Positions 2,672-15,736 of a stretch of DNA of 64,000 nt are shown piece by piece; positions within the stretch are counted from its first letter, which is position 1, and every line of letters starts with the position of its first letter. The position numbers were made by a program, and so were the translations under genes. This DNA comes from a virus: IMG/VR virus record IMGVR_UViG_3300045988_105168, positions 1 through 64,000 of that record; one strand, given 5' to 3'. Under the pieces are notes generated by a model. The model saw only the letters and a list, made by a program, of their open reading frames with translations, was not told the DNA's origin and ran no database searches.

Positions 2672-3385
2672 ATGGATGTTATACTTACTACGAAGTGCAA
2701 TTTAAAATGTAGCGAATGTTGTTATTTATTTAATAAATACGAGCACGGCGAAGATTTAGATGCTGATGTTATAATTAGCAATATGGAAAAGATAAAAACC
2801 ATTATCATACAACATCAATTATTATCTATTATTGGTGGAGAAACGTTTTTATATCCCAACTTAGTTAAAATTGTAAAATATGTCAACACTATTCCTAATA
2901 TTAAATGCACAATTTTCACAAATGGAACTATCTATCCTAGTTATATCGAAGAATTGTGTCGCACTATGAATAAAAACTTTAATATTATGATTGGTGGATA
3001 TGGTAATCCAGAAGTTATAAAAAAATTGGAAGACATTTTTACTAAGTATAATGTTAATTATGCTATTCGTCCAGACGATGCTGAATGGATAAACCACGGA
3101 GAATTCATTGACCACCAAGAAGAAAAAACTCATTTCTGTGAATTTAGATATTTAACACTAATGAAAAATAGGGTATATGCTTGTGGAAGATTTGCTCAAG
3201 CGGTTAATCTGGGCTTAATAGATATTAAAGAATTAACTGAAGACGAATATGTTGATTTAGATGATGAATTTTTATTAGAGAAACTTGCAATGATGACAGA
3301 AGAGTCTTTCTATAAATTCACTTCTACTTGCAAATATTGTCTAAGAGGTTCTAAAAAAGGTTATGGAATTAACCAAGGTATATAA
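2672..3385 (+). CDS. small radical-SAM enzyme
   Basis: N-terminal CNLKCSEC (CxxxCxxC) cluster motif and extra C-terminal cysteines (CKYC). I moved the start to ATG 2672 behind GGAGG; the track ORF from 2609 overlaps the upstream gene. Confidence 0.7.
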   Translation: MDVILTTKCNLKCSECCYLFNKYEHGEDLDADVIISNMEKIKTIIIQHQLLSIIGGETFLYPNLVKIVKYVNTIPNIKCTIFTNGTIYPSYIEELCRTMNKNFNIMIGGYGNPEVIKKLEDIFTKYNVNYAIRPDDAEWINHGEFIDHQEEKTHFCEFRYLTLMKNRVYACGRFAQAVNLGLIDIKELTEDEYVDLDDEFLLEKLAMMTEESFYKFTSTCKYCLRGSKKGYGINQGI

Positions 3386-3589
3386 TATACACCCCTCGTA
3401 TTTAATTTACACTAAAGAAGGGCTTATGAGAATAGGAATTGTTTTACAAAGGTGTGTAATCGTTAAAACAAGTAAAGGTCGGTAGGATAAAAATACATAA
3501 AAGAAGTGCCTATTCAGAATTATTATTTAGGTGGCTCGTCATTGAAGAGGCGATAAGCAGCTGGTTTAATTCCAGTAGTCCACATTTTT

Positions 3590-3663
3590 GCAGATATAGT
3601 TTAAAGGTAGAACTTCAGCCTTCCAAGCTGACCGTGTCGGTTCGAGTCCGTCTATCTGCTCCA
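3590..3663 (+). tRNA. tRNA-Gly (anticodon TCC)
   Basis: Acceptor GCAGATA/TATCTGC, anticodon loop CT-TCC-AA, T-loop TTCGAGT, encoded CCA. Confidence 0.85.
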
Positions 3664-3668
3664 TTTTT

Positions 3669-3753
3669 GCATCCGTATTCTGTTAAGGACACAGGGCAGT
3701 CTGTAAAACTGTTGCCGCTGGCTGGCTAGGTTCGATACCTAGAGGGTGCACCA
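3669..3753 (+). tRNA. tRNA-Tyr (anticodon GTA)
   Basis: Acceptor GCATCCG/AGGGTGC (one mismatch), anticodon loop CT-GTA-AA, long variable arm as in bacterial tRNA-Tyr, T-arm CTAGG-TTCGATA-CCTAG, encoded CCA. Confidence 0.75.
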
Positions 3754-4188: not shown

Positions 4189-4555
4189 GGGGTTGTCTTG
4201 GTTTCGACAGGAATGTACGAGATATGAACTACGAGTCGGAGGAACACGTCACGAACACAAAACAATAACTGGAAACAGAATTTTAAATACACTTAGAAAC
4301 TTATTTACTAATAAGGTGGCTTTAGCCTAGTGTTGCTGATTATAATTTTGTCTATTGGTTATAATTGGTATCATATAAATAGACTGGTTGTTACTTCCAC
4401 CTAAAGTGCTAACAATGAGATTTATTTAGGTTATTTCATTTAGATTTTTGCTTATTTTAAATAAATTGAAATAACATTGTAAAAATAAGATACGCTCGTA
4501 AAAGTTTGTAGGTAGTTATTTTTGGACAGGGGTTCGAGTCCCCTCAGCTCCACCA
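4189..4555 (+). ncRNA. ssrA: tmRNA (transfer-messenger RNA)
   Basis: 5' GGGGTTGTCTTGGTTTCGACAGG and 3' GGACAGGGGTTCGAGTCCCCTCAGCTCCACCA form the tRNA-Ala-like domain (G3:U70). The internal tag frame ends ...AAT AAG GTG GCT TTA GCC TAG (NKVALA-stop, stop at 4328-4330). Confidence 0.85.
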
Positions 4556-4573: not shown

Positions 4574-4744
4574 ATGATTACACATATGTACTATGGCGAG
4601 CCTTGTAAAGAAATCAAACTAGAATATCATTATTATAGAAAAGCCGCTTGTTGTGATAATTGCATCAAGCGTTTTATTTTTAGAAGGCTTGCAAAATATT
4701 ATGAGAAAAAATATGATAAAAAATTCTTGACAAACAAGAGATAA
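4574..4744 (+). CDS. small Cys-rich protein (56 aa, below the ORF-track cutoff)
   Basis: TAGGAGA SD plus ATG. Translation by eye: MITHMYYGEPCKEIKLEYHYYRKAACCDNCIKRF...TNKR-stop. Confidence 0.4.
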   Translation: MITHMYYGEPCKEIKLEYHYYRKAACCDNCIKRFIFRRLAKYYEKKYDKKFLTNKR

Positions 4745-4755
4745 TGTGGTATTAT
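4727..4755 (+). promoter_or_regulatory. sigma70-type promoter TTGACA-17 nt-TATTAT
   Basis: TTGACA at 4727-4732, a 17-nt spacer, TATTAT at 4750-4755 with TG two nt upstream. Confidence 0.6.
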
Positions 4756-4761
4756 ATATTT

Positions 4762-5170
4762 GACAGTAAAGATTGGAGACATAAAGGGTTCCTATATAAA
4801 TGAATGATTTGGTAAATGGGTTTAATATTACTCTTCGTCTTTAAAATTTAATGTAGACACAAAGGCTTCCTTTGATTAACAAAAAGCGCTACAAATTAGT
4901 CGGGCGCCTCCCGACACCCGTTAGTCTTCGTCTACATTGACTGTAAATATTATTAGGGCATAAAGGGTTCCTTTCAAGCGCATTGTAAGCCGTGTGTCGT
5001 TGGTTCGAGTCCAACACCGCCAGTTGGCGGTTAGCTCAGCTGGGTAGAGCAGCGAGAGTACTCTTCGCCCTTAATTATGTATATTTTGGTGTCATAGCGA
5101 GTTCCTATTCCGTGGGTATCCACACCGAAATCAGGATTTGGCTTGAATTACTCGCCGACACATTAATAAA
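4762..5170 (+). ncRNA. structured ncRNA or long leader of the 682-aa gene
   Basis: No credible ORF and locally GC-enriched. 9-bp helix AATGTAGAC (4850-4858)/GTCTACATT (4930-4938) encloses two hairpins. 13-nt direct repeat ATAAAGGGTTCCT at 4781 and 4960. Contains the permuted tRNA mimic. Confidence 0.5.
4999..5068 (+). ncRNA. circularly permuted, capped tRNA-like domain
   Basis: In order: T-arm GTTGG-TTCGAGT-CCAAC; acceptor-like helix ACCGCC/GGCGGT closed by an AGTT loop; TA; D-arm GCTC-AGCTGGGTA-GAGC; A; then the arm GCGAG-AGTACTC-TTCGC. Confidence 0.55.
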
Positions 5171-5178
5171 AAAGGAGA

Positions 5179-7227
5179 ATGAAAGAAATGGAAAAAGAGG
5201 TTTTAAGATTATTTAAAGGTTTTTTAGGAGAAAAATCTAACGCAGTTAATGAAAAAGGATTAAAATATGGCTTATTAATTCCTTCAACTGCCAATGAGGC
5301 TGTTGTGGAAGAAGCAATTAAATTGTATGGTAAAGATGGTGAAAAGTGGAACCAAACATTTCATAAAGATTTTGAAATTGTCCGTAACGCACCTATCGAA
5401 GATTTAATCGCTCAACAATTAATACACTACATTACAACTTATGGTTTTGAGTCTTTAGGTATGTACGATGCTGATTTAGTATATATACCAAAAGAAAAAT
5501 TAGAAATACCAGAATTAAACGTTGATAACATTGAATTAATTAGTATTAAACCATTAACACCAACAGAATTAACTGATAAATTAATGACGTTATTAACAAG
5601 CGGTATTGCTTTGTCAGAACAATCAGTAAAAGATATTATGATTTTATCCGAATTTATTGATAAAAATAGATTTGATGAAATTAATAATAGAGAAATTAAA
5701 ACTGCATTGTATGATAAATATAATATTATGCCAAGAAATCCAGAAGAGTTTTTAAGATATTTATTATTTAAAACTACAAATAGTACTTTAAAAATACAAA
5801 ACGTTCCTACTATTAACAGTATTAAAAACTGCAACAAAAATTTAGCACTAAAAATGTTAAAGTCTTATGTAGAAAATACACCAAATGGTTATAATAAATT
5901 ATCTTCAATATTCCTAAGAAATAAAAATCTATTTCTTGCATTTAAAATAAAAAAAGACGAATGTGCAAATGAAAAAGAAACTATTAATCGCATTGAAATG
6001 AATGCCTTAATAAATAAATTAAGAAAAATGGCTGTTAAAAATCATAAGCCATTAAATAAAAATGTTTTAGATTGTTTGACTGACGAAACTGTGGATGTTG
6101 ATTTAGTAGAATTGCCAACTATGTTAGATAATGTTACTATTTTTAGAGAAATAAGAATATTAAATGGTATCTTATATAGATTAAATGGTAATGATAATAT
6201 AGTTTATAAAATTAGAAACGGTAGGTCTTATGTTAAAACACTAGAACCTAAAACAAAAGAATATATTATTAGATTAGAAGGTATAGCAGAAGTTGTTAAA
6301 AAACATCTTGTAAATAGATTATCTGCTAAAGTAAAAGGCAAAACAATATTTATTCCAAAAAACGTTACATACGCAGCGCCAACAACTGAAAAACAATTTA
6401 CTGGTAATATTCCAGATGGCTCTTATTTAGAAGTGCCAAGAGATTGTAATTTAGTATATGGTGTGTATTGGAAGAATATTGAAGGTGAAATGCCAAAGCA
6501 TAGATTTTACGGAGAAGAAAATTCTAATGGTCAAGAACGTGTTGATTTAGACTTAAAACAAATGAACAAGAGCGAAGTATTTGGTTGGGATGCCTCATAT
6601 AGAAGTGCTACATCTGATATATTGTTTAGTGGCGATATGACAGACGCGCAATTACCAAATGGCGCTTCAGAATTATTCTATGTTGGTCAAAATTATGGTC
6701 ACGGAGCATTTTTGATAACATTAAATATGTTTACAAATAATAGCAAAGATGTGCCATTTGAATTTGTTATTGCAAAAGCAACACATAGACCTCAAGACCG
6801 TACATATTATGCTTTAGACCCTAATAATATATTAGAGAAAGTTGATATGGAGATTAAAAATACCGACCGTCAAAAAGTCGTAGGATTTATTACTATCGGT
6901 GATAGCATTAGATTTTACTTTAATGATTTTAGTGCGGGAGGAGCTGTTGGTACACCAAGAGGATGTAGTACATCAGAGAGAAATGCAATTACAATGGGTG
7001 CGTTTGATTATTTACAAGCATATAGTAAAACACAATTAAAATTAAACGACTTGTTAGAGGATGCTGGTGCACTTGTAGTAGATAAACCAGTAATACACGT
7101 TCAAACAGAAATCCCTAGTGTTAATGGTGGTACAGAAACTACTCTTATTGCTAGAGATGTAGATATTAATTTATCTCCAAACTCTATATCAAAAGAAACA
7201 ATTATTGAATTATTAAGTGGAGAGTAA
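5179..7227 (+). CDS. large orphan protein: helical N-terminal half, beta-rich TerD-like C-terminal region
   Basis: 682-aa ORF. GGAG SD favours ATG 5188 as an alternative start. The C-terminal YGVYWKN...RVDLDLKQ...ILFSGDMTDAQLPNGASE pattern loosely resembles the TerD fold signature. No vWA MIDAS or catalytic motif recognised. Confidence 0.45.
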   Translation: MKEMEKEVLRLFKGFLGEKSNAVNEKGLKYGLLIPSTANEAVVEEAIKLYGKDGEKWNQTFHKDFEIVRNAPIEDLIAQQLIHYITTYGFESLGMYDADLVYIPKEKLEIPELNVDNIELISIKPLTPTELTDKLMTLLTSGIALSEQSVKDIMILSEFIDKNRFDEINNREIKTALYDKYNIMPRNPEEFLRYLLFKTTNSTLKIQNVPTINSIKNCNKNLALKMLKSYVENTPNGYNKLSSIFLRNKNLFLAFKIKKDECANEKETINRIEMNALINKLRKMAVKNHKPLNKNVLDCLTDETVDVDLVELPTMLDNVTIFREIRILNGILYRLNGNDNIVYKIRNGRSYVKTLEPKTKEYIIRLEGIAEVVKKHLVNRLSAKVKGKTIFIPKNVTYAAPTTEKQFTGNIPDGSYLEVPRDCNLVYGVYWKNIEGEMPKHRFYGEENSNGQERVDLDLKQMNKSEVFGWDASYRSATSDILFSGDMTDAQLPNGASELFYVGQNYGHGAFLITLNMFTNNSKDVPFEFVIAKATHRPQDRTYYALDPNNILEKVDMEIKNTDRQKVVGFITIGDSIRFYFNDFSAGGAVGTPRGCSTSERNAITMGAFDYLQAYSKTQLKLNDLLEDAGALVVDKPVIHVQTEIPSVNGGTETTLIARDVDINLSPNSISKETIIELLSGE

Positions 7228-7315: not shown

Positions 7316-7452
7316 TAAAAAAGTGTTTCATTTCATTTTTTTAACCCCCTACTATACGGCATTATAAGAAACTTTGGATTAAGTACACATCCTTAAAGCC
7401 TTATATGTAAGTCCAAGCCTAAGAAACTTTAGAAGCCTTAGGTCTTAAATAT

Positions 7453-7552: not shown

Positions 7553-8020
7553 ATGGACAAACCTATAATATTTTTAGATTTTGACGGTGTAGTTGAAACA
7601 ATTTATTGGGAAAAAGACATCGATGGTTCGTGGTCTTGGAATGTTCATAAGAGTGGACGTGAAGAACTTAATAATAAACAAGCTATAGGATGGCTTAATG
7701 AGTTATATTCTAAAACACCTTATGATATAGTTGTTTCTAGTACTTGGCGTATTGGTATGACTTTAGAACAATTACAAACACTTATTACAAAGTCAGGTTT
7801 TAACCCTGAAATAAAAGTAATAGGTATGACGCCAGTCTTATATCAACAACGAGGATTAGAAATACAAAAATGGATTGATGATAATAAATTTAAGAATAAG
7901 TTTATTATTATAGATGATGACTCTGATATGTGTCATTTATTACCATTATTAATTAGGTGCGATTGTCAATTAGGATTTACTATATATGACTATCAAAAAG
8001 CACTAAAAATGTTATCATAG
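7553..8020 (+). CDS. HAD-superfamily phosphatase-like protein
   Basis: IIFLDFDGVV (DxD nucleophile motif), VVSSTWR and IIIDDDSD motifs. Start ATG 7553 sits behind AAGAGG; the track gives GTG 7544. Confidence 0.6.
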   Translation: MDKPIIFLDFDGVVETIYWEKDIDGSWSWNVHKSGREELNNKQAIGWLNELYSKTPYDIVVSSTWRIGMTLEQLQTLITKSGFNPEIKVIGMTPVLYQQRGLEIQKWIDDNKFKNKFIIIDDDSDMCHLLPLLIRCDCQLGFTIYDYQKALKMLS

Positions 8021-8021
8021 C

Positions 8022-8455
8022 CTGCCAAAAGGTCGGGTAGAGGGCACCGCTAGAGCTTTGTGGAGAGGAAGGTCTCCCTGTAAAACAGGATGCAATAAGG
8101 AAGTGAACGACGCTGCATTAAATTGCAAACGAGGCTTGTTTAAATAGGTACTGGAAGGTGGTACGACAAGTAGTAAGGTGGTCGGGGCATCGTGCTAGAG
8201 GCTATGACATCATTATAATTTCACCAGAAAATACCGTTTTAGAGTAATAAGTGGTGAAAATCTGATATGTTGGAACGTCTGACAGTTCCATTATGGGTCA
8301 GGCAAAGTCCGACCGAGTAAGGTAGGTTTTCGGTTGGTTTCGAGGAAAAAGAATTATCTTTTGCGTGGTGGCTGATGTAAAGAGCAGTCGACGGCATTTA
8401 TGTCGGTGACCTAGTTTTCTGCGTCTCGCTCGAGAGAGGCGCGCTTATTTTTTTT
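8022..8455 (+). ncRNA. about 430-nt GC-rich structured ncRNA of unknown class
   Basis: No ORF in any frame in the track and clearly higher GC than the flanks. Many helices: GGAGA/TCTCC, CCTG/CAGG, TGCAAT/ATTGCA, TCACC/GGTGA, GGAAC/GTTCC, and long-range GGTCGG (8031)/CCGACC (8309). Ends in a hairpin plus T-run. Confidence 0.55.
8421..8455 (+). terminator. intrinsic terminator
   Basis: GC-rich imperfect hairpin GCGTCTC...GAGAGGCGCGC followed by TTATTTTTTTT. Confidence 0.55.
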
Positions 8456-8469
8456 GTTATTATAAAGGG

Positions 8470-8973
8470 GTGAATATTGTGAAATATAAGTTTGTATTTT
8501 GTCCAGGTCATCCTGGTGTTAATAGTAAAGGTTATATATACGAACACATTTTAGTAGCTGAAGAAATGTTAGGAAGATTTTTGAAGCCAGAAGAAGTGGT
8601 TCATCATATAGATGAAAACAAAAGCAATAATATACCAAATAATTTAATGGTTTTTGCTACTGATGCTGACCACACTAGATTTCATCGATTAGATAAATCA
8701 AATAGAATACTGTATTGTATTAATGATATATGGTACTGTGATATGAAACTATCAAGATGTCAACAATGTGGAAAAGAATATAAGCCAATCAAATACAGTA
8801 AGAAAAAACCTCAAAAATATTGTTCTAAAGAGTGTTCACAATATGCACAACGAAAAATAAAGAATAGACCACCAAAATCAGAGCTATACAGTTTACTTCA
8901 GACAAATAGCTATTGCTCTATTGGTAAAATGTTTGGTGTATCTGGCAACACTATAAAAAAATGGTTAAAATAA
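8470..8973 (+). CDS. HNH homing-type endonuclease
   Basis: VVHHIDENKSNNIPNNLMVF...DHTRFH HNH motif, CQQCG...CSKEC zinc ribbon, C-terminal HTH-like IGKMFGVSGNTIKKWL. Confidence 0.75.
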   Translation: MNIVKYKFVFCPGHPGVNSKGYIYEHILVAEEMLGRFLKPEEVVHHIDENKSNNIPNNLMVFATDADHTRFHRLDKSNRILYCINDIWYCDMKLSRCQQCGKEYKPIKYSKKKPQKYCSKECSQYAQRKIKNRPPKSELYSLLQTNSYCSIGKMFGVSGNTIKKWLK

Positions 8974-9065: not shown

Positions 9066-9126
9066 GTCGACGAGTATAAATAGTCCTAGGCAACTAAGCG
9101 AGTGAGACTCTCGCCCGTCGGCTCCA
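9066..9126 (+). ncRNA. 61-nt tRNA-like mini-element ending in T-CCA
   Basis: GTCGACG/CGTCGGC gives a 7-bp acceptor-like helix plus TCCA. There is an internal arm GCGAG-TGAGACT-CTCGC and no D-arm. Preceded by TATATGT. Confidence 0.25.
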
Positions 9127-14709: not shown

Positions 14710-14925
14710 TTATACGTAGTCTACATTTGCGCCCAAATATTCTAAAAGAGATAAGGCAAAATCATAACCGAAATTACTAAAACTATAATTGACATCACTA
14801 TCCATACCATCTGGGTCTTCTTCAGTGATTTCAACAACAAATATATCATCGTTGTCAACATATATTTTATATCTTTCAGGGTCGTCTAGGCATTTTTGTA
14901 GCCATTCTTTATCTTCTTTAGTCAT
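14710..14925 (-). CDS. hypothetical acidic protein (71 aa)
   Basis: ORF track. Confidence 0.5.
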   Translation of the reverse strand: MTKEDKEWLQKCLDDPERYKIYVDNDDIFVVEITEEDPDGMDSDVNYSFSNFGYDFALSLLEYLGANVDYV

Positions 14926-15736
14926 CTAATAATTCCTCGCTTTCTATAACTAATACATTTACTTTTTTAGAGTAATTAGTTGTTGCATCGATTGCAATTA
15001 CTCTTCCGTCTTTTCTACGTAATATATCAAAACTTCCTAACGGATTACGATTTGGGGAATATCCATATTTCTTTCTTAATGTGGATGTTCCAAAATGGCC
15101 TATAACTACAGTCTTATCTGTATTATTAATCTCTTTACCAAAGAAACTTCCGTCGTCCCACATTAATGCTTCCCAATCAGTAAAGTGGTAGCGCATACAA
15201 TGTGGCTCGTGCCAATCTTTAGCATTTACATCAATCGCTCCGTGAGTAAATATATAGTTTTTGGTTTCAAAATAATAAGGTCGAGTTTTTAACCATTCTA
15301 ATAACTCAGGATATTCCTCATTAATTTCTTTTTTAGCACCAGATAGCCATTCAGCAAAATCTCCTATGGTAGGGACATCAATGTCCTTAGCAAGAACACA
15401 CCAACTTTCAAACGGTGCTGTTTGATGTAAGAAGTCTGCCATAGTTTCTCTTGTACCATTGTGAAAATAATTAAAAGGGTCTAAAGATGTGCCATCTAAA
15501 TAATTAGTAAAGAAGCCTGTATGGTTGCCTTTTAAAACAATCGCCTTCCCCTCATCAGATAATCGTTTTAAATATTCATACACTTCCAAACATTCATCAC
15601 CACGGTCTAAGGCATCACCTATACTAACTAACAAATGGTTTGGATTATTTTCATCATATCCAGCTTTCTTTAAACTTTCTTTTAAACATCTTGCTTCCCC
15701 GTGTATATCCGACACGGCAAATATAGTTTTTTTCAT
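14918..15736 (-). CDS. calcineurin-like metallophosphatase (PrpE/lambda-PP type)
   Basis: Motifs DIHGE, GDALDRGD, GNHT, GHFG. Confidence 0.75.
   Translation of the reverse strand: MKKTIFAVSDIHGEARCLKESLKKAGYDENNPNHLLVSIGDALDRGDECLEVYEYLKRLSDEGKAIVLKGNHTGFFTNYLDGTSLDPFNYFHNGTRETMADFLHQTAPFESWCVLAKDIDVPTIGDFAEWLSGAKKEINEEYPELLEWLKTRPYYFETKNYIFTHGAIDVNAKDWHEPHCMRYHFTDWEALMWDDGSFFGKEINNTDKTVVIGHFGTSTLRKKYGYSPNRNPLGSFDILRRKDGRVIAIDATTNYSKKVNVLVIESEELLDD

What the first reader, a model, noticed from the sequence alone, without database searches (positions are those of the whole stretch)
8022..8455. About 430-nt GC-rich, highly structured orphan RNA ending in a terminator, next to an HNH endonuclease gene
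No ORF appears in any frame in the track, yet the GC content is far above the flanks. I can pair many local helices (GGAGA/TCTCC, CCTG/CAGG, TGCAAT/ATTGCA, TCACC/GGTGA, GGAAC/GTTCC, ACCGA/TCGGT) and a long-range one (GGTCGG 8031 / CCGACC 8309). A hairpin plus T-run closes it at 8421-8455. Large ornate RNAs of unknown function, such as the ROOL and GOLLD classes, are typically found in phages and prophages beside tRNA genes. This element fits that niche but is shorter than I remember those classes being.
Basis: partly seen in the sequence, partly recalled or inferred. Interest (0 to 1): 0.65.

Follow-up and report, generated by a model that had tools for sequence, protein, structure and literature searches.

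The report
Two small phage RNAs, not one
The GC-rich gap between two phage genes holds two separate, conserved, folded non-coding RNAs of unknown function that match no described RNA family and share a genomic neighbourhood with the large phage RNA called ROOL.

Summary
The stretch is non-coding, GC-rich and ends in a terminator, as reported. It is not one ~430-nt ornate RNA. Comparison with about 75 related loci splits it into units that occur independently.

- **Module A (8016-8206)** is closed by an 8-bp stem made from its own two ends. A 123-nt minimal form stands alone between two terminators in an unrelated phage.
- **Spacer hairpin (8219-8259)** is specific to this lineage.
- **Module B (8272-8420, plus hairpin/terminator 8421-8455)** is a five-helix junction. 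Across 13 variants, 99.5% of cells pair and 10 pairs show compensatory changes.

The HNH gene is a recent insertion with no link to the RNA. No Rfam family matches A or B, including ROOL, GOLLD, Y RNA, RNase P and group I introns.

The ROOL comparison still has some basis. In two Bacilli MAG contigs the core of B lies downstream of true ROOL RNAs. In sister phages A sits where ROOL sits in one of those contigs, upstream of the same spacer.

Both modules lie at the end of a ~3.7-kb operon that starts with a YrlA-like Y RNA. The function was not determined. My best guess is that they are stable trans-acting RNAs released from the tRNA-island transcript.

The parts
8016..8206 (+). Module A, a ~190-nt structured RNA. 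P1 terminal stem: 8016-8023 with 8199-8206; its 5' strand contains the HAD stop codon UAG at 8018-8020. P2: 8034-8036 with 8047-8049. P1b (tentative): 8050-8053 with 8195-8198. P3 hairpin: 8062-8066 with 8073-8077. Conserved single-stranded words: CCAAAAGG, GGUAGAGGGCAC, GUAAAA.AGG, GAAGUG. Variable middle: ~8090-8175.
   Evidence: Homologues: L035, L056, L072, L074, L043 and the minimal L075. Pair counts: 15 pairs, 99% paired, 6 with changes on both sides; slid controls 23-48% paired and at most 1 such pair. L075 has P1 = CAUCAGCUU/AAGCUGGUG against CAUAGCCU/AGGCUAUG here.
8219..8259 (+). Lineage-specific spacer hairpin, UUUCACCA (8219-8226) with UGGUGAAA (8252-8259) and a 25-nt loop.
   Evidence: The stem is kept and the loop changed in L035. 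L056, L072 and L074 have a different hairpin here (GUUCGUUUAGUUAUCAAAG.AAGAAC) that is homologous to the sequence just after ROOL in L073.
8272..8420 (+). Module B core, a ~150-nt five-helix junction. P1: 8272-8275 with 8417-8420. P2: 8277-8286 with 8293-8303. P3: 8309-8317 with 8329-8337; its loop UAAGG(U/C)AGGUU is otherwise constant. P4: 8347-8352 with 8357-8362. P5: 8363-8385 with 8394-8415.
   Evidence: 13 distinct variants (alignment A6). 46 pairs, 99.5% of cells paired, 10 pairs with changes on both sides; slid controls 40-51% paired and 0-2 such pairs. Eight positions are mostly or always G-U pairs, which fits only the + strand.
8421..8455 (+). P6 hairpin plus U-run. It is an intrinsic terminator in this phage.
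   Evidence: Terminator scan. Most relatives keep a hairpin with a different sequence (helix 6, 87.5% paired). In L002, L056, L052, L072 and L074 it abuts tRNA-Met with no U-run. In L004/L025 it is followed by further non-coding sequence, and in L005/L022 the pairing is weak.
7553..8020 (+). Upstream gene for a stand-alone HAD_SAK_2 phosphatase-family protein. This is context only, not part of the RNA.
   Evidence: Pfam PF18143, E = 3e-21.
8479..8973 (+). HNH_3 homing-endonuclease gene. It is a lineage-specific insertion unrelated to the RNA.
   Evidence: Pfam/PHROGs. It is absent from the same site in L003, which reads GTGAA|TGGTTAA.
4727..4755 (+). Best promoter-like site upstream (TTGACA-17-TATTAT with TG). 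It is the likely start of the operon that ends at 8455.
   Evidence: Scan. The only other + strand terminator-like site before 8420 is a weak 5-bp stem at 5052-5068, inside the YrlA-like match.
4975..5076 (+). YrlA-like Y RNA at the head of the same operon. This is context.
   Evidence: Rfam RF02553, 50.8 bits, E = 1.8e-10, below the gathering score of 69.

Best explanation
The interval holds two independent structured non-coding RNA modules plus a spacer hairpin. They lie at the 3' end of a phage ncRNA/tRNA operon: promoter ~4727, YrlA-like RNA, 682-aa protein, tRNA-Ile, tRNA-Gln, HAD phosphatase, A, B, terminator at 8455.

**Shown.** A and B are each conserved, each has its own closing stem, each is supported by compensatory changes, and each occurs without the other.

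**Inferred.** Both are released from the long transcript as discrete stable RNAs. Their closed, compact folds would protect them. In relatives the 3' end of B would be set by RNase P cutting the abutting tRNA-Met; here it is set by the terminator. They would then act in trans, as RNA-only or RNA-protein particles, during infection.

They are cassettes of the same genomic niche as ROOL and GOLLD. In sister phages A takes the position that ROOL takes in L073, upstream of a shared spacer and a B-type core. The biochemical function was not determined.
For: - **Composite nature.** B occurs without A in L002-L005, L022, L025, L052 and L063. A occurs without B in L043 and L075.
- **Transfer or constraint on A.** In L035, A is about 95% identical to the window copy, while the flanking HAD protein is 78% identical and B about 82%.
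- **Structure of B.** 99.5% of cells paired and 10 compensated pairs.
- **Structure of A.** 99% paired and 6 compensated pairs, plus a largely rewritten P1 in L075.
- **A as a free-standing unit.** In L075 it lies between two + strand terminators, with a TATAAT hexamer 5 nt before P1. It sits among portal and terminase genes on the other strand, with no tRNAs in the 9.3-kb locus.
- **ROOL link.** ROOL scores 172.7 bits in L071 and 155.9 bits in L073. B's P2-P3 core lies downstream of both. The A-B spacer of L056, L072 and L074 matches the sequence starting ~11 nt after ROOL in L073.
- **Operon signals.**
Against: - There are no expression data. Discrete processing and trans action are inferences.
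- Thermodynamic stability is unremarkable: z from -0.2 to -2.3.
- Both families are small, with 13 and 7 variants that are partly close relatives, so covariation counts are inflated by shared ancestry.
- P1 and P4 of B never vary, so they are untested.
- B always follows the last ORF before the tRNAs in the HAD-type loci, which also fits a cis role.
- The ROOL link rests on two contigs for the B core and on one (L073) for the spacer and slot.
Confidence: 0.6

Rival explanations
1. B, with or without A, is a cis-acting 3'-end element of the operon. It would be a folded 3' UTR that protects the HAD mRNA from 3' exonucleases, or that marks the boundary for processing between the mRNA and the tRNAs, with P6 acting as terminator.
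For: In every HAD-type locus B starts within about 15 nt of the stop codon of the last ORF, except where A and a spacer are inserted between them. It ends at a terminator, at a tRNA, or in L004/L005-type loci at further non-coding sequence. P6 is a genuine terminator in the window.
Against: Loop and junction sequences are nearly invariant across 13 variants, which a generic protective fold does not need. The P2-P3 core also occurs deep inside kilobase-long non-coding stretches after ROOL, far from any ORF. L065 has the same gene order but no B.
Confidence: 0.2
2. A and/or B are additional Y-RNA-like partners of the phage Ro60-type system encoded in the same operon. They would tether or gate the Ro60 protein or the 682-aa protein.
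For: - The operon starts with a YrlA-like RNA.
- Sister phages L056, L052 and L072 carry a TROVE/Ro60 gene in place of the 682-aa gene, also preceded by a YrlA-like RNA.
- Full-length B was found only in loci with one of these two proteins.
- Y RNAs are encoded within 4 kb of Ro60 on the same strand and are closed by a terminal stem (PMC4201824). A has such a stem, and it has GGUCGGGUAG near its 5' end, faintly like GGUCCGA / GNCGAAN0-1G.
Against: - Neither A nor B hits the YrlA or Y_RNA models.
- Neither has a tRNA-like T or D arm.
- A in L043 and L075, and the B core in L071 and L073, lie in loci with no TROVE or 682-aa gene. tblastn covered L043, L071 and L073. For L075 only a Pfam scan of the main ORFs was done.
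- The GUCCGA word in B is lost in L035 (UUUUGA).
- The 682-aa protein shows no similarity to TROVE.
Confidence: 0.12
3. One ~430-nt ornate RNA of the ROOL/GOLLD type.
For: The interval is one contiguous GC-rich non-coding stretch in a phage tRNA island, bounded by a gene and a terminator.
Against: The two halves occur separately in most relatives. The only proposed helix joining them is contradicted by local compensation. There is no ROOL or GOLLD hit, while true ROOLs score above 150 bits in the same kind of scan.
Confidence: 0.04
4. B is a riboswitch-like attenuator. A ligand-binding junction would control the P6 terminator and so control read-through into the downstream tRNA genes.
For: A ~150-nt multi-helix junction immediately followed by a terminator hairpin is the classic riboswitch layout.
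Against: The U-run is missing in most relatives, where P6 abuts tRNA-Met. The P6 sequence is replaced wholesale in L004 and L005 while P1 stays constant, so no conserved antiterminator pairing is evident. No Rfam riboswitch hit was found.
Confidence: 0.04

Closest known systems
ROOL RNA (Rfam RF03087) and, by niche, GOLLD RNA
   Same: Phage-borne structured RNAs of unknown function, encoded in or beside tRNA islands and probably co-transcribed with tRNAs (PMC5737381, PMC12286853). B's P2-P3 core lies downstream of true ROOLs in L071 and L073. In sister phages A occupies ROOL's slot upstream of the same spacer as in L073.
   Different: There is no sequence or structure match to either model. 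A is ~120-190 nt and B ~150 nt, against ~580 nt for ROOL and over 800 nt for GOLLD. No multistem-junction and pseudoknot architecture comparable to ROOL is evident. Oligomerisation was not tested.
Bacterial and phage Y RNAs (YrlA, RF02553) with Ro60/Rsr
   Same: Small RNAs closed by a stem made from their 5' and 3' ends, on the same strand and within 4 kb of a Ro60-type locus. A genuine YrlA-like RNA heads the same operon.
   Different: A and B lack the T and D arms that mimic tRNA, lack the GNCGAAN0-1G motif, and do not hit the model. They also occur in loci without a Ro60 gene.
Structured 3' UTR and terminator elements of bacterial and phage operons
   Same: Position directly after the last ORF, ending in an intrinsic terminator in this phage.
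   Different: Loop and junction sequences are strongly conserved, there are five helices with covariation, and the core occurs away from ORFs.

Membership tests
ROOL (RF03087) | Match to the Rfam covariance model at or above 99.1 bits | tested here: not met
   No hit at the gathering score or at E<=10 on 7900-8600. As a positive control, L071 scores 172.7 bits and L073 155.9 bits.
ROOL (RF03087) | [quoted passage not shown] | tested here: not met
   A is 191 nt (123 nt minimal) and B is ~150 nt with one junction.
ROOL / GOLLD | Encoded in phages or prophages near tRNA islands | tested here: met
   17 tRNA/tmRNA genes flank the region. This is a niche feature, not sufficient for membership.
GOLLD | Match to the Rfam model; over 800 nt with a conserved 3' half | tested here: not met
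   No hit, and the length is far too short.
Y RNA / YrlA (RF02553) | Match to the covariance model; tRNA-like T and D arms | tested here: not met
   No hit in 7900-8600 or in minimal A. The model does hit 4975-5076 in the same window at 50.8 bits.
Y RNA / YrlA | GNCGAAN0-1G (or GGUCCGA) Ro-binding motif near the 5' end (PMC4201824) | tested here: inconclusive
   A has GGUCGGGUAG (GGUCAGGUAG in L072, L074 and L075). B has GUCCGA inside the P3 hairpin, but this is lost in L035. These are only partial resemblances.
Y RNA / YrlA | Encoded next to a Ro60/TROVE gene on the same strand | tested here: inconclusive
   Met in L056, L052 and L072. The window has an unrelated 682-aa protein instead. No TROVE gene was found by tblastn in L043, L071 or L073, or by Pfam scan of the main ORFs in L075.
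Transcription-attenuating riboswitch | Conserved terminator or antiterminator competing with the aptamer; match to a known class | tested here: not met
   The U-run is absent in most relatives and the P6 sequence is not conserved. No Rfam riboswitch hit.
Group I intron carrying an HNH gene; HEARO/omega RNA of IscB/IsrB | Flanking exons or a ribozyme core; or an adjacent IscB/IsrB nuclease | tested here: not met
   No Rfam hit. The HNH ORF is a 164-aa free-standing HNH_3 protein that is absent in relatives. The flanking tRNA genes are intact.
RNase P RNA / 5S rRNA (word-level resemblances) | Match to the covariance model | tested here: not met
   No hit even when only 145 nt were searched. GGCAAAGUCCGAC forms a local covarying hairpin, not a P4-type long-range helix.

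The most novel reading that the evidence does not exclude
A and the B-type core are new classes of modular phage RNA cassettes that are functionally tied to ROOL. A would be a miniature stand-in for ROOL, and the B core a shared partner module. They might form RNA-only assemblies, or serve with the Y-RNA/Ro60-type and HAD RNA-repair genes of the same operon to keep the phage's tRNA pool working against host tRNA-targeting defences.
Probability: 0.15. Interest if true: 0.8.

Novelty: new variant of a known kind. Interest (0 to 1): 0.55.

Why it matters
ROOL and GOLLD are abundant phage RNAs that form cages, and their function is still unknown. Small, tractable RNA modules that sit in ROOL's slot (A) or travel with it (the B core) would give new handles on what tRNA-island RNAs do. 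The same operon pairs a Y-RNA-like gene with a widespread uncharacterised 682-aa protein, where sister phages carry Ro60. That points to an untested RNA-surveillance or repair module in gut phages. If A and B turn out to be merely structural 3' UTR pieces, the finding is ordinary.

Tried and rejected
- **Rfam.** Every family was scanned at the gathering score on the whole window, at E<=10 on 7900-8600, and on the 145-nt minimal A. Nothing credible turned up.
- **GenBank phages.** BLAST found no match for the region or for the L075 copy. The phage itself has no close cultured relative.
Rejected because P3 compensates locally and B exists without A.
- **T-box-like GGUGGUAC and 5S-like words** (GGAAGUGAAC, GGUGGUCGGGG). 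No model support.
- **Is the 682-aa protein a hidden Ro60?** BLASTP, Pfam, PDB sequence search, an AlphaFold model (pLDDT 74) with Foldseek against the PDB, and hhalign were all negative.
- **Similarity of the spacer hairpin to the 3' end of an nrdG gene in L024.** E is about 0.08, and the window's own nrdG lacks the sequence. Treated as chance.
- **Small peptide starting at ATG 8267.** The frame is broken by a 1-nt indel in relatives.
- **Exact-pattern scans of IMG/VR for A** found nothing until the pattern was loosened.

Full report
**Setting.** The window is an AT-rich phage genome from human-gut metagenomes. Identical copies occur in ENA assemblies, and there is no close cultured relative. 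Its first 9 kb are a tRNA island with 16 tRNA genes and a tmRNA. The finding lies between a stand-alone HAD_SAK_2 phosphatase-family gene (7553-8020; Pfam PF18143, E = 3e-21) and an HNH_3 endonuclease gene (8479-8973).

**The observation.**
- GC rises to 0.41-0.475 across 8000-8500, against 0.26-0.33 in the flanking genes.
- No + strand ORF of 30 aa or more lies in 8021-8469.
- A terminator-like hairpin with a U-run sits at 8420-8455.
- No Rfam 15 family matches, either at the gathering score on the whole window or at E<=10 on 7900-8600.
- Folding energy is only mildly unusual: z = -2.25 on the + strand and -1.78 on the - strand. "Highly structured" therefore cannot rest on thermodynamics.

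**The region is a composite.** I collected about 75 related loci, using:
- the HAD protein in IMG/VR and in JGI/ENA metagenomes;
- exact-protein look-ups;
- DNA patterns in IMG/VR and in GTDB genomes.

nhmmer then showed that only the 3' part (window ~8268-8455, module B) is present in most relatives. In L002 and L022 it follows HAD directly. In L003-L005 and L052 it follows a second HAD-like ORF.

The 5' part (module A) is found only in L035, L056, L072 and L074, at the same place as in the window. It also occurs without B: in L043, just before a tRNA-Leu and 4 kb from HAD, and in L075, an unrelated phage. In L035, A is about 95% identical to the window copy, although the HAD protein is 78% identical and B about 82%. 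That indicates either recent transfer or strong constraint on A.

**Module A (8016-8206).** Its two ends pair as CAUAGCCU (8016-8023) with AGGCUAUG (8199-8206). The HAD stop codon UAG (8018-8020) lies inside the 5' strand.

For the pair counts I removed the variable middle and joined the conserved 5' and 3' domains of seven variants with a linker. On that alignment I tested 15 pairs: P1, the 3-bp P2 (8034-8036/8047-8049) and the tentative P1b (CUAG/CUAG, 8050-8053/8195-8198).
- 99% of cells pair.
- 6 pairs change on both sides.
- Slid controls give 23-48% paired and at most 1 such pair.
- The single unpaired cell is an alignment artefact. Read directly from the sequence, L075 has a 9-bp P1, CAUCAGCUU/AAGCUGGUG, with five positions changed on both strands.

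The P3 hairpin GGAGA/UCUCC (8062-8066/8073-8077) becomes GAAAGA/UCUUUC in L056 and AGAGA/UCUCU in L043. The middle (~8090-8175) is variable. It is short in L056, long and AT-rich in L043, and nearly absent in L075.

In L075 the 123-nt minimal A (4629-4751) lies between two + strand terminators (4588-4603 and 4852-4867). A TATAAT hexamer sits 5 nt before P1. The surrounding portal and terminase genes are on the other strand, and the 9.3-kb locus has no tRNAs. A is therefore an RNA gene in its own right.

**Spacer (8219-8259).** The hairpin UUUCACCA/UGGUGAAA is kept in L035 with a changed loop. L056, L072 and L074 carry a different hairpin in its place.

**Module B (8272-8420, plus P6 at 8421-8455).** Thirteen distinct variants (alignment A6) support a five-helix junction:

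| Helix | 5' strand | 3' strand |
|---|---|---|
| P1 | 8272-8275 | 8417-8420 |
| P2 | 8277-8286 | 8293-8303 |
| P3 | 8309-8317 | 8329-8337 |
| P4 | 8347-8352 | 8357-8362 |
| P5 | 8363-8385 | 8394-8415 |

- Of 46 pairs, 99.5% of cells are paired and 10 pairs change on both sides.
- Slid controls give 40-51% paired and 0-2 such pairs. No shuffle reaches the observed values.
- P1 and P4 never vary, so they are untested.
- Eight positions are mostly or always G-U pairs, which fits only the + strand.
- The P3 loop UAAGG(U/C)AGGUU and the junction strands are almost invariant.
- Most relatives keep P6 as a hairpin with a different sequence. Only some have a U-run. In L002, L052, L056, L072 and L074 the hairpin abuts tRNA-Met, where the 3' end would be set by RNase P (inference).

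GGAGA/UCUCC, ACCGA/UCGGU, UGCAAU/AUUGCA and the terminator hold up. CCUG/CAGG and GGAAC/GUUCC are not conserved. The long-range 8031/8309 helix is contradicted. CCGACC belongs to P3, and when it changes to UUGACC in L035 the local partner changes to GGUCAA.

**The HNH gene.** L003 shows the empty site, GTGAA|TGGTTAA, between B and tRNA-Cys. The gene is a homing-endonuclease insertion and is unrelated to the RNA.

**Link to ROOL.** The GTDB scan found B's pattern in four MAG contigs.
- Two of them (L072, from a 'Ca. Coprovivens' MAG, and L074) carry A plus B.
- The other two (L071 and L073, uncultured Bacilli) carry only the P2-P3 core of B, with P3 still paired through further compensated changes.
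- In both L071 and L073 this core lies inside long non-coding stretches downstream of bona fide ROOL RNAs (172.7 and 155.9 bits; gathering score 99.1).
- The A-B spacer of L056, L072 and L074 is homologous to the sequence that starts ~11 nt after ROOL's 3' end in L073.

So the layout [ROOL or A] - spacer - [B-type core] recurs, and in those sister phages A stands where ROOL stands in L073. ROOL and GOLLD are phage and prophage RNAs of unknown function, often near tRNA islands, and they form cages in vitro (PMC5737381, PMC12286853).

**Operon context.** The best + strand promoter-like site upstream is at 4727-4755. The only other + strand terminator-like site before 8420 is a weak 5-bp stem at 5052-5068, inside the YrlA-like match. 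The unit begins with a YrlA-like Y RNA (4975-5076; 50.8 bits, E = 1.8e-10, below the gathering score), followed by a 682-aa protein, tRNA-Ile, tRNA-Gln, HAD, A and B.

In L052, L056 and L072 a TROVE/Ro60 gene replaces the 682-aa gene (PF05731, E = 3e-7 for L052 and L056; L072 is 94% identical to L056 by tblastn). It is preceded by a YrlA-like sequence in all three, scoring 38.5 bits in L056 and 43.3 bits in L072.

The 682-aa protein has 1731 homologues but no detectable similarity to TROVE or to any solved structure.

Full-length B was seen only in loci with one of these two proteins. However, L065 has the protein and HAD without B. A and the B core also occur in loci without either protein. 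I therefore rate the idea that A or B is a Y-RNA-type partner as a minority view.

**Conclusion.** These are two real, previously undescribed structured RNA modules. Their function was not determined. The most likely mechanism is inferred, not shown: they are excised with the tRNAs from the operon transcript and act in trans as stable RNAs, in the same biological niche as ROOL. A cis 3' UTR or processing role for B is the main rival.

Noticed in passing
window 4770-5178 and 5179-7227: A YrlA-like Y RNA lies at 4975-5076 (RF02553, 50.8 bits). A second upstream unit (4780-4958) begins with the same CAUAAAGGGUUCCU word. Both sit behind a strong promoter-like site and directly precede a 682-aa protein that has 1731 homologues and no Pfam, PDB or Foldseek match. 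Sister phages (L052, L056, L072) carry a TROVE/Ro60 gene plus a YrlA-like RNA in the same slot. The 682-aa protein may therefore be a new Y-RNA-associated protein.
   Followed up: partly
window 9066-9123: A conserved ~60-nt tRNA-like minihelix lies between tRNA-Cys and tRNA-Ile. It has a 7-bp acceptor-like stem, two hairpins and a UCCA tail. Four pairs are compensated across six loci. Neither ARAGORN nor Rfam calls it.
   Followed up: partly
L013 6663-6817; L008 4133-4288: Strong partial matches to only the 3' part of OLE RNA (RF01071, model positions 437-594; 102.5 and 85.8 bits) lie inside the tRNA arrays of related phages.
   Followed up: no
L071 3763-5225: The ROOL RNA appears interrupted. 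The Rfam hit ends at 4403, but sequence homologous to the ROOL 3' end of L073 lies at ~5120-5225. This implies an insertion of ~700-800 nt.
   Followed up: no
L008 ~3250-3670; L013 ~5310-5520; L012 ~5330-5720; L004 5080-5230: More GC-rich non-coding stretches that look structured lie in the tRNA islands of related phages. None has an Rfam hit.
   Followed up: no
window 7316-7452: A 137-nt non-coding spacer lies between tRNA-Ile and tRNA-Gln. L056 has a ~100-nt spacer at the same position. Neither was analysed.
   Followed up: no
window 4189-4555: The phage encodes its own tmRNA (121.8 bits; tag peptide ANNEIYLGYFI). Related loci L001, L012 and L035 also have one.
   Followed up: no
L035 1271-1344; L022 4685-4753: ARAGORN reports tRNA-like genes with a two-base anticodon.
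   Followed up: no
window 14918-15736: A metallophosphoesterase shows partial PHROG similarity to RNA-ligase-associated proteins. Together with the HAD_SAK_2 gene, this hints at a phage RNA-repair capacity.
   Followed up: no
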